From: Candidatus Saccharimonadales bacterium
GTDB taxonomy: Bacteria > Patescibacteriota > Saccharimonadia > Saccharimonadales > UBA4665
Length of the DNA stretch: 64,000 nucleotides
Reading direction: 5' to 3'
Assembly: GCA_035479955.1 (NCBI GenBank)
Contig: DATIIE010000015.1
Span: 2,268 to 66,267 of the forward strand
In this document: positions 41,417 through 44,639 of the stretch, in pieces
How positions within the stretch are numbered: position 1 is the first letter of the stretch
How the letters are laid out: each line of letters starts with the position of its first letter
Program-made: the position numbers and the translations under genes
Notes under the pieces: model-generated
The model's database searches: none
Told to the model about the DNA's origin: nothing
Seen by the model: only the letters and a program-made list of their open reading frames with translations

Positions 41417-41917
41417 ATGTTCGGGCATGACGACAACGCGCAAGTGACACAAGACGCTGCAGCACAAGGGGCAACGACAGATAGTGGTCTGGGCGTGCCC
41501 GCAGCAAACAACATGGACGTAACCACCGTGGGCGCTGACGCGCAAGCGCCGGCCCAGGATGGTTTTAGCGGCGGCGCTGAGCTGCCAGCCACTGTTCCTG
41601 AAGCAGAACCTGCAGCCGTAGCTGCTCCAGCACCTGTTGCTCCCATGGGCGACGACCCTATTGGCGGCGGCGAAGACCTCCTGCAAATCAAGCAGCAAGC
41701 ATTGCAGCAGCTGTCCCCGCTGGTTGGCCACCTCGACCAAACCCCTGAAGAAAAATTCCGCACGACCATGATGATGATCCAGGCTTCCGACAACCAGGAG
41801 CTCATCAAAGACGCCTACACTGCAGCCCAATCTATCGAAGACGAAAAGACCCGCGCCCAAGCGCTGCTCGACATCATCAACGAAATCAATTACTTCACCC
41901 AGCAGCACCAAGCGTAG
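41417..41917 (+). CDS. Hypothetical protein, disordered acidic N-half and helical C-terminal domain
   Basis: TTGTGC-N17-TATACT promoter, GAGAGG RBS. Confidence 0.82.
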   Translation: MFGHDDNAQVTQDAAAQGATTDSGLGVPAANNMDVTTVGADAQAPAQDGFSGGAELPATVPEAEPAAVAAPAPVAPMGDDPIGGGEDLLQIKQQALQQLSPLVGHLDQTPEEKFRTTMMMIQASDNQELIKDAYTAAQSIEDEKTRAQALLDIINEINYFTQQHQA

Positions 41918-41935: not shown

Positions 41936-42511
41936 GTGGTCCGCCTCAAACACGTAAATAACCTGCTGTTTGCCGCAACGGTGGTAATTTTACTGTACAT
42001 AATTGTTGCGCCAGCATTGCCGATGCTGACGTTTTGGCTGCAAAGCCGCACCATGCGCGCCACGCAGCTAGCCGCCCAATTACACGTGCCTTCCACCAAG
42101 GTAACCGTGCCCACTGGCGAACGCCTGGTAGTGCCGGCCATGCTGCTGAACGAACCAATTAATGAGGGCGCGAACCTCAGCGCCCTGAACCACGGCGGCA
42201 CCTGGCGGCGCCCCAAAACAAGCACGCCGGACGCTGGTGGCAACACGGTAATTGTGGCGCACCGCTACACCTACACTAACCCGCGCGGCACATTCTATTT
42301 CCTGAATAAAATAAAAGTTGGCGATGAAATTGGCGTGTTCTGGCACGGCAAGCGCTATGTGTACCGCACTACAAGCGTCCGCACCGTGAACCCTAACGAC
42401 GCAACCGTGGAAGCGCCCACTAAAAACGCCCAGCTGACGCTGTACACCTGCACTCCATTGTGGCTTCCTAAAGACCGGTTGGTGGTAATTGCCGAACTGG
42501 AGAAACCATGA
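41936..42511 (+). CDS. Sortase (class E/D-like)
   Basis: N-terminal TM; catalytic His (AHRY), Cys (LTLYTC) and Arg (DRLVV). Confidence 0.93.
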   Translation: MVRLKHVNNLLFAATVVILLYIIVAPALPMLTFWLQSRTMRATQLAAQLHVPSTKVTVPTGERLVVPAMLLNEPINEGANLSALNHGGTWRRPKTSTPDAGGNTVIVAHRYTYTNPRGTFYFLNKIKVGDEIGVFWHGKRYVYRTTSVRTVNPNDATVEAPTKNAQLTLYTCTPLWLPKDRLVVIAELEKP

Positions 42512-42618
42512 GCGACAAAACGCGCTTCTGGCTGCTGCTTTCGTTATTCATATTGAGCGTGGTGCTGCTGGTCATACTCAATTCAGCACTGGCCCAGCAA
42601 GTACTGGTGCACAGTTAA
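42508..42618 (+). CDS. 36-aa single-TM peptide translationally coupled to the sortase
   Basis: MSDKTRFWLLLSLFILSVVLLVILNSALAQQVLVHS; its ATG overlaps the sortase TGA (ATGA); below the ORF-track cutoff. Confidence 0.6.
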   Translation: MSDKTRFWLLLSLFILSVVLLVILNSALAQQVLVHS

Positions 42619-42637
42619 ACCGCGCGGCTCTTCCCTG

Positions 42638-42922
42638 TTATTCGGGCTTGGCTGCGCCAGATGGGGCATTAGCCTGCACCCGGGCCGCACTCTTCGCCGG
42701 GCGGCGCCAAAAGCGCACCAGCACCACAATAAGCAGCAGCAAACACGCAACCCCCACAATAAGGGCAACCAAAACACCGGTATTTGCCAGCGGGTTCGTG
42801 CCAGTGCCCGAGCTACCACCCGCAGTAGAACAATTTGTGCCGGTATGGGTTTGCGTGTTACATGCGTACGTATTCTCGCCATAAGCGTTGGAACCATACA
42901 CATCTGCAAATCTGCTATACAT
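42638..42922 (-). CDS. Minimal sortase substrate (LANTG + TM + RR tail)
   Basis: NPLANTG-VLVALIVGVACLLLLIVVLV-RFWRR; AAAGG RBS. Confidence 0.8.
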   Translation of the reverse strand: MYSRFADVYGSNAYGENTYACNTQTHTGTNCSTAGGSSGTGTNPLANTGVLVALIVGVACLLLLIVVLVRFWRRPAKSAARVQANAPSGAAKPE

Positions 42923-42992
42923 ATCGTGCCTTTCGTATAAGCGTTACCTATATGCTATCATACAAGAGGTCAACATAATAAAGTGAGGCGAC

Positions 42993-43199
42993 ATGACTGG
43001 CACCTTTGCCTTTCTAGATTTAGGCACTCCTGAGCTCATCATTATCCTGGTGATCGTGCTGCTTTTATTTGGCGGCCGCAAACTTCCGGAACTATCCCGC
43101 AGTATTGGGCAATCTATGCGCGAAATTCGTAATGGGCTAAACGGCGACGGGCACCATGAGAGCAAAAAAACAGAGGAAAAACCAAAGCACAACGGCTAG
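42993..43199 (+). CDS. tatA: Twin-arginine translocase TatA
   Basis: LG.PELIIILVIVLLLFGGRKLPELSRSIGQSMRE. Confidence 0.93.
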   Translation: MTGTFAFLDLGTPELIIILVIVLLLFGGRKLPELSRSIGQSMREIRNGLNGDGHHESKKTEEKPKHNG

Positions 43200-44385
43200 C
43201 GCGGCCTCGCGCGAGCACAATCCGAAGCTGCCTTTTATAGAGCACCTGCTAGAGCTGCGTAAGCGCTTGTTTTACGTGGCGTTGTCGGTTATTTTATGGA
43301 GCGTTGCGGCTTATTTTGTGCAGCAACACATTGTTAGCATATTGCTGCGGCCGGCGCATAACCAGCAATTTATTTATACCAGCGTGGGCGGCGGCATCGA
43401 CTTCCTGTTCCGCGTATGTTTGTACGCGGGTATTGTGTTTAGTATCCCCGTTATTGTGTTCCAGGTGCTCAAATATTTGCAGCCGCTTATTAAGAAAGAC
43501 GCTGTGCGGTTTATTGCCGGCGGCAGTGTCGTTTCAGGGGTGCTGGCGGCGGCTGGCATGATGTTTGGTTATTTCCTGGGGCTGCCCGCTGCCCTGCACT
43601 TCTTGCTGCACCAGTTCACTAGCGGCCAGATCCACCCGCTGCTTACTATCCAGTCGTATATGTCATTCGTAACACTGTACATGCTGGGGTCGGCGTTGCT
43701 GTTCCAGCTGCCCCTGCTGATGGTGTTGATTAACCGTATTAAGCCGCTGAAGCCCAAAAAATTGCTTGGCTACGAGCGCTGGGTAATTTTACTAGCGTTT
43801 GTGGGCGGCGGCATTATGAACCCCTCGCCGCGCGTGCAGGACCAGCTGATGCTGGCAGTGCCGATTATTTTGGCCTACCAGGTTGGCGTAGGGCTGGTGT
43901 GGTACATGAACCGGGGTGGCCGCTCTGAAAAGATGCGTGCCATGCTTGCAAAAGACGCCGCCGAGCGCCAGCAGCGCCATTCGCGTTTCGTAGAGGCGCA
44001 AACTGCGTTACAGCAAAAAATGGCCACAACTGTGCAGCCTTCGGCAGCAGCACATGCCCGGCAGGCCGCGCCGCGCGCCGCGGCCGTGGTTACAGCACCC
44101 AAGCCTACTGTCATACATACACCAGCTGTTGCCAGCGTTCCTGTAGCAGCCCGGCCCGCCCATAAGCGCATGGATGTGTCGCCAGTCAAAGTGGCGCCTG
44201 CTGCAACGGCGCAGCCCCAACAGGCCCAGCGCACCACCCGCACCGCTGCCACCAGCCGGCCCATATCCCGTGCAGCACAGCCGCCGCGCCGCGCCTACTT
44301 CAACGATTTCGTGCCACGCCGCGTACCAGCAGCAAACACCTACCGTGTGGCACCCCGCCAGGGAAACTCCCCCGAAGCAGCATAA
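43156..44385 (+). CDS. tatC: Twin-arginine translocase TatC with about 160-aa disordered C-terminal extension
   Basis: LPFIEHLLELRKRL, SIP...QV..YLQP, FQLP, P.P.V.DQLMLAVPIILAYQ; start overlaps tatA by 44 nt. Confidence 0.92.
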   Translation: MRAKKQRKNQSTTASAASREHNPKLPFIEHLLELRKRLFYVALSVILWSVAAYFVQQHIVSILLRPAHNQQFIYTSVGGGIDFLFRVCLYAGIVFSIPVIVFQVLKYLQPLIKKDAVRFIAGGSVVSGVLAAAGMMFGYFLGLPAALHFLLHQFTSGQIHPLLTIQSYMSFVTLYMLGSALLFQLPLLMVLINRIKPLKPKKLLGYERWVILLAFVGGGIMNPSPRVQDQLMLAVPIILAYQVGVGLVWYMNRGGRSEKMRAMLAKDAAERQQRHSRFVEAQTALQQKMATTVQPSAAAHARQAAPRAAAVVTAPKPTVIHTPAVASVPVAARPAHKRMDVSPVKVAPAATAQPQQAQRTTRTAATSRPISRAAQPPRRAYFNDFVPRRVPAANTYRVAPRQGNSPEAA

Positions 44386-44390
44386 GCGGC

Positions 44391-44419
44391 TTGACGCCTT
44401 AGGCAACCTGGCCTACAAT
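44391..44419 (+). promoter_or_regulatory. Promoter of the small TRKEFL peptide gene
   Basis: TTGACG-N17-TACAAT. Confidence 0.7.
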
Positions 44420-44444
44420 CAGGTTACAAACTTAAAAACAAAAA

Positions 44445-44639
44445 ATGACCATGAACAAAGCACTACAAAACCTCATGGAAAAAGAGATGACACGCAAAGA
44501 ATTCCTGGCCGCGTGCGGCCTGGGCATTGCCAGCTTGCTGGGCTTTGGGTCTCTTATCCGCATGCTGAATGGCAAAGACCAAGCCACTGGTGGCGCCGGT
44601 CTTACCAACGGCTACGGTGTGCACCGCTACGGGCGCTAA
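44445..44639 (+). CDS. 64-aa peptide resembling a Tat signal (TRKEFL + hydrophobic segment) with a short GYG..RYG tail
   Basis: MTRKEFLAACGLGIASLLGFGSLI; own promoter; directly after tatC. Confidence 0.75.
   Translation: MTMNKALQNLMEKEMTRKEFLAACGLGIASLLGFGSLIRMLNGKDQATGGAGLTNGYGVHRYGR

What the first reader, a model, noticed from the sequence alone, without database searches (positions are those of the whole stretch)
41936..44639. Sortase + Tat + three micro-peptides: a compact candidate surface-display system
Seen: within 2.7 kb lie a sortase, a coupled 36-aa TM peptide, a 94-aa LANTG substrate, tatA, tatC and a 64-aa Tat-signal-like peptide. The two small proteins share a YGxxxYG motif (YGSNAYG; YGVHRYG). 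Established: class E sortases recognise LAXTG, and TatAC alone is the minimal Gram-positive-type translocase. Inference: a dedicated pathway that exports and wall-anchors or polymerises very small Gly/Tyr-rich peptides (coat, adhesin or host-attachment factor). A reduced genome keeping Tat next to such tiny apparent substrates is unexpected.
Basis: partly seen in the sequence, partly recalled or inferred. Interest (0 to 1): 0.72.

Follow-up and report, generated by a model that had tools for sequence, protein, structure and literature searches.

The report
Tat cassette with two tyrosine-glycine micro-proteins
A soil Saccharibacteria genome carries a four-gene cassette (a minimal Tat protein exporter plus two tiny proteins sharing a tyrosine-glycine motif) that is gained or lost as one unit across the class and here lies beside a separately inherited sortase, which suggests an undescribed small cell-surface module.

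Summary
All six ORFs are real, conserved genes at the stated coordinates. Comparative genomics splits the stretch into two modules.

- **Module A, sortase plus the coupled 36-aa membrane peptide.** This pair also occurs in Tat-less genomes, beside large L[AV]xTG substrates. It is not assignable to class E.
- **Module B, p94(-)/tatA/tatC/p64.**
  - In 201 Saccharimonadia genomes all 63 with p64 have TatC, against 65 TatC-positive genomes in total.
  - One same-family genome has identical synteny with exactly these four genes missing.
  - p94 stays beside p64 or tatAC through inversions, relocations and duplications.

p64's N-region is the lineage's ordinary Tat signal. The same RK-containing sequence heads GH16 and GH26 enzymes in relatives, but p64 lacks their cleavage site, so it probably stays membrane-anchored.

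Both small proteins conserve [YF]GxxxYG. It sits at the C-terminus of p64 and at the mature N-terminus of p94. p94 relatives carry a Sec signal peptide in distant families and none in this family.

Best reading: Tat inserts p64, p94 inserts N-out and is cut at LANT|G by the adjacent sortase, and the two motifs act together outside the membrane. The genetic linkage is shown. The biochemistry is inferred.

The parts
41417..41917 (+). Context only: conserved 166-aa hypothetical protein that travels with the sortase
   Evidence: It is syntenic upstream of the sortase in both Tat-positive and Tat-negative genomes. It has no Pfam family.
41936..42511 (+). Module A: membrane-anchored sortase (191 aa). 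N-terminal TM is aa 10-34. Catalytic residues are His109 (VAHR), Cys172 (TLYTC) and Arg181.
   Evidence: Pfam PF04203 at 84.7 bits. Best NCBIfam match is class E at 63 bits, far below the 160-bit cut-off. PDB matches are class C 2xwg at 42 bits and SrtE1 at 35 bits. Orthologues occur in Tat-negative genomes.
42508..42618 (+). Module A: 36-aa single-TM peptide translationally coupled to the sortase (ATGA overlap). Positional analogue of actinobacterial SafA.
   Evidence: It is conserved directly after the sortase orthologue in Tat-positive and Tat-negative genomes, with HMM E-values of 1e-11 to 1e-14. SafA is described in PMC9282373.
42638..42922 (-). Module B: p94, a signal-less tail-anchored micro-protein. 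Features: YGSNAYG at aa 9-15 (nt 42878-42898); Cys21 and Cys31; Gly/Ser/Thr linker; LANTG at aa 45-49 (nt 42776-42790); TM at aa 50-69; RFWRRP at aa 70-75; cytoplasmic tail.
   Evidence: The family alignment gives invariant Y9, Y19, L45, T48, G49, R70 and R74. The gene is linked to tatA/p64 across the class. The charge bias fits an N-out orientation.
42975..43003 (-). Promoter-like site for p94, in the divergent p94/tatA intergenic region
   Evidence: GTGCCA-17-TATTAT, 9 of 12 matches. This is a consensus match only.
42993..43199 (+). Module B: tatA (68 aa)
   Evidence: PF02416 at 55.7 bits. TIGR01411 at 55.8 bits, above its 53.9-bit cut-off.
43156..44385 (+). Module B: tatC (409 aa). The TatC domain is aa 29-236, followed by a roughly 165-aa Ala/Pro/Gln-rich C-terminal tail. 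It overlaps tatA by 44 nt.
   Evidence: PF00902 at 157.9 bits. TIGR00945 at 132.2 bits against a 132.7-bit cut-off. The tail sequence is shown.
44391..44419 (+). Own promoter-like site of p64 (TTGACG-17-TACAAT)
   Evidence: 10 of 12 matches. This is a consensus match only.
44445..44639 (+). Module B: p64, a Tat-signal micro-protein. Features: T-R-K-E-F-L at aa 16-21 (nt 44490-44507); Gly/Ala/Ser-rich hydrophobic region at aa 20-38; basic c-region RMLNGK; short linker; C-terminal GYGVHRYG at aa 56-63 (nt 44610-44633).
   Evidence: Invariant E14, R17, E19, F20, G33, Y57, G58, Y62 and G63. It co-occurs strictly with TatC. NCBIfam NF038009 matches at E=2e-15 but below its cut-off. The homologous N-region serves as the signal peptide of GH16 and GH26 enzymes in relatives.

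Best explanation
The 2.7 kb holds two neighbouring units, not one machine.

**Unit A** is a general-purpose membrane sortase with a coupled 36-aa membrane partner. The partner most likely stabilises or modulates the sortase, as SafA does for actinobacterial SrtA.

**Unit B** is a four-gene cassette, p94 / tatA / tatC / p64, inherited or lost as a block in Saccharimonadia.

Proposed mechanism:

1. TatAC recognises p64 through an ordinary lineage-type Tat signal (S/T-R-R/K-x-F-L, weakly hydrophobic h-region, basic Sec-avoidance c-region).
2. p64 lacks the AxA-type cleavage site that the same signal has on larger cargo. It therefore stays anchored N-in/C-out and shows its C-terminal GYGxSxYGG motif on the outer face.
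3. p94 inserts N-out/C-in. In distant families it uses a Sec signal peptide cleaved right before the motif. In this family it most likely uses signal-independent (YidC-type) translocation of its short, almost lysine/arginine-free N-tail.
4. The adjacent sortase cuts p94 at L-A-N-T|G and links the roughly 48-residue Tyr-Gly/disulphide peptide to the wall.
5. The near-identical motifs, at a free C-end in p64 and a free N-end in p94 and other tagged surface proteins, act together outside the membrane. This could be by pairing with each other or by binding one common partner. The result is a small surface-tethering module.

Shown: gene content, linkage, phyletic coupling and motif conservation. 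Inferred: topology, sortase cleavage, lack of p64 cleavage and motif pairing.
For: **Tat-p64 coupling**

- In 201 Saccharimonadia genomes, TatC is over cut-off in 65 and p64 is present in 63. All 63 are TatC-positive, and no p64 occurs among the roughly 136 Tat-negative genomes.
- In a phylum sample of 251 genomes, p64-like genes occur only in TatC-positive genomes.

**Cassette behaviour**

- G130, of the same family, has PGI-p166-sortase-p36-groEL with exactly p94/tatA/tatC/p64 absent.

**Linkage survives rearrangement**

- Rearranged loci: L062, L088, L099, L097, L109.
- p94-p64 pairs away from tatAC: G153, G131, L080 and G327.
- A duplicated tatA'/p94'/p64' trio occurs in G036.
- Of 80 p64 loci, 71 have tatC nearby, 66 have p94, 61 have p94 with tatA and tatC, and 52 have the sortase.

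**Sortase independence**

- Full-length orthologues occur in many Tat-negative genomes, followed by p36 and beside 271-1232-aa LADTG, LVNTG or LVKTG proteins.

**p64 as cargo**

- Distant orthologues have true RR (DRREFL, NRREFL).
- There are 2-4 diverging paralogues per genome.
- Its N-region, including RK, is the signal peptide of GH16, GH26 and beta-helix proteins, where it is followed by small-x-small sites that p64 lacks.

**p94 topology**

- N-tails average 44 aa with 0.9 K/R (2% against 10% in the proteome). C-tails are 21% K/R.
- Signal-peptide-bearing relatives place the motif right after the AxA site.

**Motif**

- The invariant columns are given.
- The same N-terminal tag heads dockerin, fn3 and histidine-kinase proteins next to tatA/p64.
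Against: - No expression, localisation or interaction data exist. Only DNA metagenome runs hold the locus.
- p64 scores below the curated cut-offs of both TIGR01409 (no hit in this genome) and NF038009.
- NCBI's description of the related family as 'Tat system-associated' leaves open that p64 is an accessory factor rather than cargo.
- Why a roughly 20-residue unstructured tail should need Tat is unexplained.
- The p94 profile is weak in distant families. Some assignments rest on the short motif plus position.
- The Y/F co-variation between partners rests on only two clean cases.
- Genomes are MAGs and related to each other, so the raw co-occurrence counts overstate the number of independent events.
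Confidence: 0.5

Rival explanations
1. Hitch-hiker export. p64 works as a signal peptide supplied in trans. Its C-terminal Tyr-Gly motif binds the N-terminal Tyr-Gly motif of signal-less p94 in the cytoplasm. TatAC exports the pair and integrates p94's C-tail, after which sortase processes p94.
For: - p94 lacks a signal peptide throughout this family and in some others (68 of 82 collected relatives).
- p94 is never found without Tat and p64.
- The two genes stay adjacent even when away from tatAC.
- Tat is known to integrate C-tail anchors and sortase substrates. Signal-less C-tail partners encoded next to a Tat substrate were named as an unsearched class in PMC10924467.
Against: - Relatives in distant families have their own Sec-type signal peptides yet remain tied to Tat and p64, so the tie is not explained by export alone.
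- The signal-less N-tails are short and almost free of Lys/Arg, as expected for Sec-independent or YidC insertion.
- No complex has been shown or could be modelled here.
Confidence: 0.17
2. p64 is not cargo but an accessory or regulatory component of the TatAC translocase. For example, it could be a permanently docked signal-like peptide that primes or gates TatC.
For: - Co-occurrence with TatC is near-perfect, and p64 usually sits directly after tatC.
- The related NCBIfam model NF038009 is described as a 'twin-arginine translocation system-associated protein'.
- Few other Tat-signal proteins are detectable in these genomes.
Against: - There are multiple diverging paralogues per genome, some far from tat genes and inside surface-protein clusters.
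- The N-region is interchangeable with cleavable signals of GH16 and GH26 enzymes.
- Five of eight TatC-positive genomes of other Patescibacteria classes lack p64.
- The most conserved part after the signal is the far C-terminal motif shared with p94.
Confidence: 0.13
3. One reading: sortase, 36-aa peptide, p94, TatAC and p64 form one dedicated pathway that exports and wall-anchors or polymerises small Gly/Tyr peptides.
For: - All six genes are adjacent in 48 of 80 p64 loci.
- In this family p94's motif L[AVT]NTG matches the motifs of other substrates next to orthologous sortases.
- In G217, p94 has moved next to the sortase.
Against: - The sortase and p36 persist without Tat, p64 or p94 in many genomes.
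- The cassette persists without an adjacent sortase in most other families.
- Some p94 relatives have no sorting motif at all (L134, L135, kinase forms).
Confidence: 0.1
4. There is no functional link. The genes are neighbours only through inherited gene order next to groEL.
For: The whole HK-RR-PGI-p166-...-groEL region is syntenic in the genus.
Against: - Linkage of p94, tatAC and p64 survives inversions, relocations and duplications, and extends to other orders and another class.
- There is strict co-presence and co-absence.
- The motif is shared and conserved.
Confidence: 0.03

Closest known systems
Tat-dependent tail-anchored proteins and Tat-dependent sortase substrates of Actinobacteria (Gallego-Parrilla et al. 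2024, PMC10924467)
   Same: Tat and sortase act on proteins held by a C-terminal helix. The paper explicitly predicts C-tail proteins without their own signal, encoded next to a Tat substrate.
   Different: There, one protein carries both the Tat signal and the C-tail. Here the Tat signal (p64) and the sorting signal (p94) sit on two separate micro-proteins joined only by a shared motif. p94 has either no signal or a Sec-type one.
SrtA-SafA pair of Actinobacteria (Ramirez et al. 2022, PMC9282373)
   Same: A small single-TM protein is encoded immediately downstream of a housekeeping sortase, and the linkage is conserved.
   Different: p36 has 36 aa rather than 52. It lacks SafA's PGP and FPW motifs and instead conserves M-S/N-E/D-K-x-R-F-W before the TM and LN..GQQ after it. 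No detectable homology was found, and a signal-peptidase-antagonist role is untested.
NCBIfam NF038009, 'twin-arginine translocation system-associated protein' (70-position model)
   Same: p64 aligns over nearly the full model (positions 2-65) at E=2e-15, and the architecture appears the same.
   Different: The score of 56.8 bits is far below the 100-bit cut-off. No genome of 251 Patescibacteria sampled reaches the cut-off, so the curated family is a sister group from elsewhere. No publication was found. Relatives in public records are all 'hypothetical protein'.
Uncleaved Tat signal-anchors such as Rieske iron-sulphur proteins (own knowledge)
   Same: A Tat signal that is not removed serves as an N-terminal membrane anchor.
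   Different: Rieske proteins carry a folded cofactor domain. p64 carries only about 25 residues ending in a Tyr-Gly motif.
Streptomyces chaplins with class E sortases (own knowledge; SrtE1 structure paper PMC5148588 listed)
   Same: Very small surface peptides, some wall-anchored by sortase through non-LPXTG motifs, act together with unanchored relatives.
   Different: There is no sequence similarity to chaplin domains. Chaplins use Sec signals, and there is no Tat link.

Membership tests
Sortase (Pfam PF04203) | Profile score above the gathering cut-off | tested here: met
   84.7 bits against a 26.6-bit cut-off.
Sortase (Pfam PF04203) | Catalytic His, Cys (TLxTC) and Arg | tested here: met
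   His109 (VAHR), Cys172 (LTLYTC) and Arg181 align with solved sortases.
Class E sortase (NCBIfam NF033747) | Score at or above the 160-bit subfamily cut-off | tested here: not met
   63.3 bits. Classes C and D score about 52-54 bits. The best PDB relative is class C 2xwg, with SrtE1 fifth.
Class E sortase (NCBIfam NF033747) | Substrates with LAXTG (Ala at position 2) | tested here: inconclusive
   This copy has LANTG, but family members have A, V, T or S at position 2. Neighbours of orthologous sortases have LADTG, LVNTG, LVKTG or IPNTG.
TatA/E (TIGR01411, PF02416) | Score above cut-off | tested here: met
   TIGR01411 at 55.8 against 53.9 bits. PF02416 at 55.7 against 21 bits.
TatC (PF00902, TIGR00945) | Score above cut-off | tested here: met
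   PF00902 at 157.9 against 25.1 bits. TIGR00945 at 132.2 bits is just under its 132.7-bit cut-off.
Twin-arginine signal peptide | Consecutive Arg-Arg in S/T-R-R-x-F-L-K | tested here: not met
   This copy and its whole family have T/S-R-K-E-F-L. TIGR01409 gives no hit in this genome. Distant orthologues have RR. RK versions head GH16 and GH26 cargo in relatives.
Twin-arginine signal peptide | Polar n-region, weakly hydrophobic h-region, basic c-region | tested here: met
   The sequence is read directly.
Twin-arginine signal peptide | Occurs only where a Tat translocase exists | tested here: met
   All 63 p64-positive genomes are TatC-positive and none of about 136 Tat-negative genomes has p64. 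The phylum sample agrees.
Twin-arginine signal peptide | Tat-dependent export shown | not testable with these tools
   This needs reporter fusions in tat-positive and tat-negative strains.
NCBIfam NF038009 (Tat system-associated protein) | Score at or above the 100-bit cut-off | tested here: not met
   56.8 bits, E=2e-15. No sampled Patescibacteria genome reaches the cut-off.
LPXTG-type cell-wall sorting signal (TIGR01167) | Motif, then a hydrophobic stretch, then a positively charged tail at the C-terminus | tested here: met
   LANTG, then a 20-aa TM, then RFWRRP. L45, T48, G49, R70 and R74 are invariant. The HMM score itself is 12.7 bits against 15.9, so below cut-off.
LPXTG-type cell-wall sorting signal (TIGR01167) | N-terminal secretion signal on the same protein | tested here: not met
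   There is no hydrophobic N-region, and only 70 nt separate the start codon from tatA. Relatives in other families do have one.
LPXTG-type cell-wall sorting signal (TIGR01167) | Cleavage and wall linkage by sortase | not testable with these tools
   This needs a peptide cleavage assay or wall proteomics.
SafA (sortase-associated factor A) | Small TM protein encoded directly downstream of a housekeeping sortase | tested here: met
   ATGA overlap. The gene is conserved after the sortase orthologue in Tat-positive and Tat-negative genomes.
SafA (sortase-associated factor A) | PGP and exoplasmic FPW motifs | tested here: not met
   p36 has neither. The motifs are as described in PMC9282373.

The most novel reading that the evidence does not exclude
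p64 and the N-terminal Tyr-Gly tag form a new protein-sorting pair. p64 would be a Tat-inserted micro-protein that is little more than a signal peptide plus a docking motif. It would capture, and for signal-less partners such as p94 possibly co-export by hitch-hiking, surface proteins that carry the matching tag at their free N-terminus. Those partners include tiny sortase substrates, dockerin and fn3 proteins, and sensor kinases. In Saccharimonadia the Tat system would then be retained chiefly to serve this module.
Probability: 0.2. Interest if true: 0.85.

Novelty: new variant of a known kind. Interest (0 to 1): 0.6.

Why it matters
Tat is rare in Patescibacteria (14 of 251 sampled genomes) and patchy in Saccharimonadia (about one third). 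What it is kept for there is unknown. This work shows that its presence is tied to an unannotated micro-protein family of about 1,400 sequence clusters, all labelled 'hypothetical', and to a partner with the same Tyr-Gly motif.

That gives a concrete, testable candidate for:

- the function of Tat in these epibionts;
- a natural case of a tail-anchored sortase substrate without a signal peptide encoded beside a Tat-signal protein, a class that Tat researchers have flagged as unsearched;
- a possible new N-terminal tag on surface proteins of bacteria that live attached to host cells.

Tried and rejected
- **Single-sequence homology search with p64.** It found only 2 proteins. The profile search was needed.
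- **TIGR01409 scan of 20 Tat-positive and 20 Tat-negative genomes.** It did not discriminate. It hit roughly 460-aa proteins in Tat-less genomes and missed the RK signals.
- **My own TATFIND-like scan of the genome.** It gave only a few plausible candidates: a 211-aa protein at C52 with DRRQLL and a 410-aa protein at C24. Neither has a Pfam family.
- **RNA evidence.** Only DNA soil metagenome runs hold the locus.
- **Class E membership of the sortase.** Rejected.
- **Homology of p36 to SafA.** Rejected on motifs; only a positional analogy remains.
- **Resemblance of p94's YGxGxYGxC...C to the pediocin-box of class IIa bacteriocins.** Considered from memory and dropped, because no Pfam bacteriocin family matched at E<1.
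- **Y-to-F co-variation between p64 paralogues and partner proteins.** Only two clean F-F pairs were found, so it is kept as a lead and not as evidence.
- **WxL/Csc-like nature of the clusters that hold FG-type p64 paralogues.** Only a sub-threshold WxLIP_PGBD hit was found.
- **Structure prediction.** Not run. The tool folds single chains only, and the open question is an interaction between two micro-proteins.


Full report
**Observation**

The ORF list and the sequence confirm every element of the finding:

- A 191-aa sortase at 41936-42511 (Pfam Sortase 84.7 bits).
- A 36-aa hydrophobic ORF at 42508-42618 whose ATG overlaps the sortase stop (ATGA).
- A 94-aa minus-strand ORF at 42638-42922 (p94) with LANTG, a 20-residue hydrophobic stretch and RFWRRP.
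- tatA (42993-43199) and tatC (43156-44385), both with clear family matches.
- A 64-aa ORF at 44445-44639 (p64) with T-R-K-E-F-L, a Gly/Ala/Ser-rich hydrophobic stretch and a C-terminal GYGVHRYG.

The window lies in a 1.18-Mb, 133-contig soil Saccharimonadales assembly (record titles). None of the three small proteins has a Pfam family. p64 matches NCBIfam NF038009 ('twin-arginine translocation system-associated protein') over its full length at E=2e-15. That is 56.8 bits against a cut-off of 100.

**The small ORFs are real genes and the shared motif is real**

tblastn and HMM searches recover all three in dozens of genomes.

- In 21 p64 sequences, E14, R17, E19, F20, G33, Y57, G58, Y62 and G63 are invariant.
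- In 16 p94 sequences, Y9, Y19, L45, T48, G49, R70 and R74 are invariant and Y14 is nearly so.

p64 therefore ends in GYG-x-S-x-YGG and p94 begins with YG-x-G-x-YG-x3-Y, usually followed by two cysteines. About two YGxxxYG motifs are expected by chance in the whole proteome. Here they sit in two tiny genes about 1.5 kb apart (42922 to 44445) and are conserved across the class.

The sorting motif in the family is L-[AVTS]-[ND]-T-G, not strictly LAXTG.

**Linkage**

Across the genus and family, the block HK-RR-PGI-p166-sortase-p36-p94(-)-tatA-tatC-p64-groEL(-) is syntenic. A scan of one genome per species with the p64 profile returned 80 loci, almost all Saccharibacteria MAGs. Within those loci:

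| Feature near p64 | Loci (of 80) |
|---|---|
| tatC | 71 |
| p94 | 66 |
| p94 + tatA + tatC | 61 |
| sortase | 52 |

The linkage survives rearrangement:

- Inversions give sortase/tatC(-)/tatA(-)/p94(+)/p64(+), or sortase/p94(-)/p64(+)/tatC(-)/tatA(-) (L062, L088, L099, L097, L109).
- In other orders of the class, the p94-like gene again sits divergently beside tatA-tatC-p64, without an adjacent sortase (L119, L122, L123, L129, L130, L133-L135, L138).
- Where p64 is away from tatAC, the p94-like gene goes with it (G153, G131, L080).
- G036 has a second tatA'/p94'/p64' trio.
- In a genome of another Patescibacteria class, a divergent p94/p64 pair lies 7 kb from tatC.

**Phyletic pattern**

In 201 Saccharimonadia genomes, TatC is over its cut-off in 65 and p64 is present in 63. 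All 63 are TatC-positive. The TatC-positive genomes without p64 are one with a partial TatC and one 86%-complete assembly.

In 251 genomes spread over the phylum, TatC occurs in 14. p64-like genes occur in all 6 Saccharimonadia among them, in 3 of the 8 others, and in no Tat-negative genome.

By contrast, full-length orthologues of the sortase (>115 bits) occur in many Tat-negative genomes. There they are followed by the 36-aa gene and neighboured by ordinary large substrates:

- 271 aa with LADTG
- 1232 aa with LVNTG
- 1006 aa with LVKTG
- IPNTG proteins

The clearest single case is G130, of the same family. Its order is PGI-p166-sortase-p36-groEL, so precisely p94, tatA, tatC and p64 are missing. 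The stretch therefore consists of a sortase/p36 unit and a four-gene cassette that happen to be neighbours in this family.

**What p64 is**

- Distant orthologues have genuine twin arginines (DRREFL, NRREFL, DRRQFL), while this family has a fixed RK.
- A basic residue follows the hydrophobic region, as in Sec-avoidance c-regions (established knowledge of Tat signals).
- In relatives, the same N-terminal 45 residues, RK included, head 361-854-aa secreted proteins. Two of these are GH16 and GH26 glycoside hydrolases. There the signal is followed by small-x-small sites such as SHAA|T.

So the RK sequence is this lineage's normal Tat signal, and Tat has conventional cargo in some relatives.

p64 lacks such a cleavage site, so I infer that it remains signal-anchored with its Tyr-Gly tail outside. 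Genomes often hold 2-4 diverging paralogues, some ending in HGFGS[RS]KFG and lying in clusters of secreted beta-rich proteins. This fits a cargo family better than a translocase subunit.

All public relatives (1,381 clusters) are labelled 'hypothetical' and have no Pfam domain. The one paper found on Tat in soil Saccharibacteria notes the translocase and four TATFIND hits, but not these proteins (PMC6031116).

**What p94 is**

In distant families the homologue has a Sec-type signal peptide whose predicted AxA cleavage site lies one to four residues before the Tyr-Gly motif. The motif is therefore an extracytoplasmic tag at the mature N-terminus.

The same tag heads larger proteins encoded at the same position:

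- TM-anchored 223-aa proteins
- a dockerin protein
- an fn3 protein
- two sensor histidine kinases

In this family, and in some others, the signal peptide is absent (68 of 82 collected relatives; the set is biased towards this family). These signal-less N-tails average 44 residues with 0.9 Lys/Arg (2% against 10% in the proteome). The C-tails hold 21% Lys/Arg. That is a strong positive-inside signature for N-out/C-in insertion, and is typical of short N-tails that cross without Sec (established knowledge of YidC-type insertion).

Most p94 relatives keep a sortase motif (LANTG, LVNTG, LINTG, LPDTG, LPTTG, LPVTG), but some have only a TM anchor.

**The sortase and p36**

The enzyme has the His, Cys (TLxTC) and Arg residues but cannot be placed in class E:

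- NF033747 gives 63 bits against a cut-off of 160.
- The best solved relative is a class C enzyme, with SrtE1 only fifth.

The genome has three more sortase genes. One lies beside a 312-aa LPNTG ice-binding-like protein and one beside an 81-aa LPHTG protein.

p36 is a positional analogue of SafA, the 52-aa membrane protein that follows the actinobacterial housekeeping sortase and protects it from signal peptidase (PMC9282373). It lacks SafA's PGP and FPW motifs.

**Mechanism**

The best-supported account is this:

1. TatAC inserts p64, which stays anchored and displays its C-terminal motif.
2. p94 inserts N-out.
3. The neighbouring sortase cuts p94 at LANT|G and attaches the roughly 48-residue peptide to the wall.
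4. The two near-identical motifs act together outside the membrane. One sits at a free C-end and the other at a free N-end.

The genetic coupling is shown. The topology, cleavage and pairing are inferred.

The main rival is hitch-hiking of signal-less p94 on p64 through Tat. It matches a class of substrates that Tat researchers have named as unsearched (PMC10924467). It is weakened because signal-bearing relatives stay equally tied to Tat and p64, and because of the charge pattern of the N-tails.

A role for p64 as a Tat accessory subunit, as the NCBIfam name hints, is not excluded.

**Verdict**

There is a conserved, compact surface-related module built around Tat and two micro-proteins. The sortase is a neighbour and likely processing enzyme rather than an obligate member, and the class E/LAXTG assignment does not hold. 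The module is a new variant of known kinds (Tat cargo, sortase substrate) with an undescribed shared tag. It deserves experimental follow-up.

Noticed in passing
G000:C24:10929-11793 (same genome, outside the window); also L158:7080-7939: A second sortase gene sits next to an 81-aa protein that is little more than a Thr/Gly-rich N-tail plus LPHTG, a TM segment and a basic tail. It has no signal peptide. G153 has an orthologous 60-aa LPATG protein directly upstream of a sortase. Tiny signal-less sortase substrates appear to be a recurring theme in Saccharibacteria.
   Followed up: partly
window 43876-44385: TatC carries a roughly 165-residue Ala/Pro/Gln/Arg-rich C-terminal extension beyond the TatC domain. 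TatC reading frames in relatives range from 242 to 414 aa, so such tails are common but variable.
   Followed up: no
L085:8186-10048 and L132:7514-9619: Sensor histidine kinases have an extracellular N-terminus that, after a signal peptide, starts with the same YGxGx[YF]..C..C tag. They are encoded right beside tatA and p64. This hints that the tag and p64 may also feed into signalling.
   Followed up: partly
L161, L163, L164, L103, L108 (relatives): p64 paralogues ending in HGFGS[RS]KFG lie inside a conserved cluster of secreted beta-rich proteins and TM-anchored Ig-like proteins. One protein has a sub-threshold WxL-interacting-protein hit. In two genomes a 186-aa protein starts, after its signal peptide, with PFGxGKFG, which mirrors the Phe version of the motif.
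   Followed up: partly
L144 (G130:C2:213000-221000): A same-family genome has identical synteny but lacks exactly p94-tatA-tatC-p64 between p36 and groEL. This is a natural deletion or insertion of the cassette.
   Followed up: yes
G187, G189, G200, G242, G215, G102 (Tat-negative relatives): Proteins of roughly 460 aa (394 aa in G102 and a 150-aa frame in G215) match the TIGR01409 Tat-signal model above its cut-off in genomes without any TatC. They are either leftover signals after Tat loss or false positives.
   Followed up: no
window 41417-41917: A 166-aa acidic, Ala-rich protein of unknown function ends 18 nt before the sortase start. It stays with the sortase in both Tat-positive and Tat-negative genomes, so it may belong to the sortase operon.
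   Followed up: partly
G000:C52:343-978(-): A 211-aa protein of unknown function has a textbook twin-arginine signal (DRRQLLRAF..., ASAA). After p64 it is the best further Tat cargo candidate in this genome. It has no Pfam family.
   Followed up: partly
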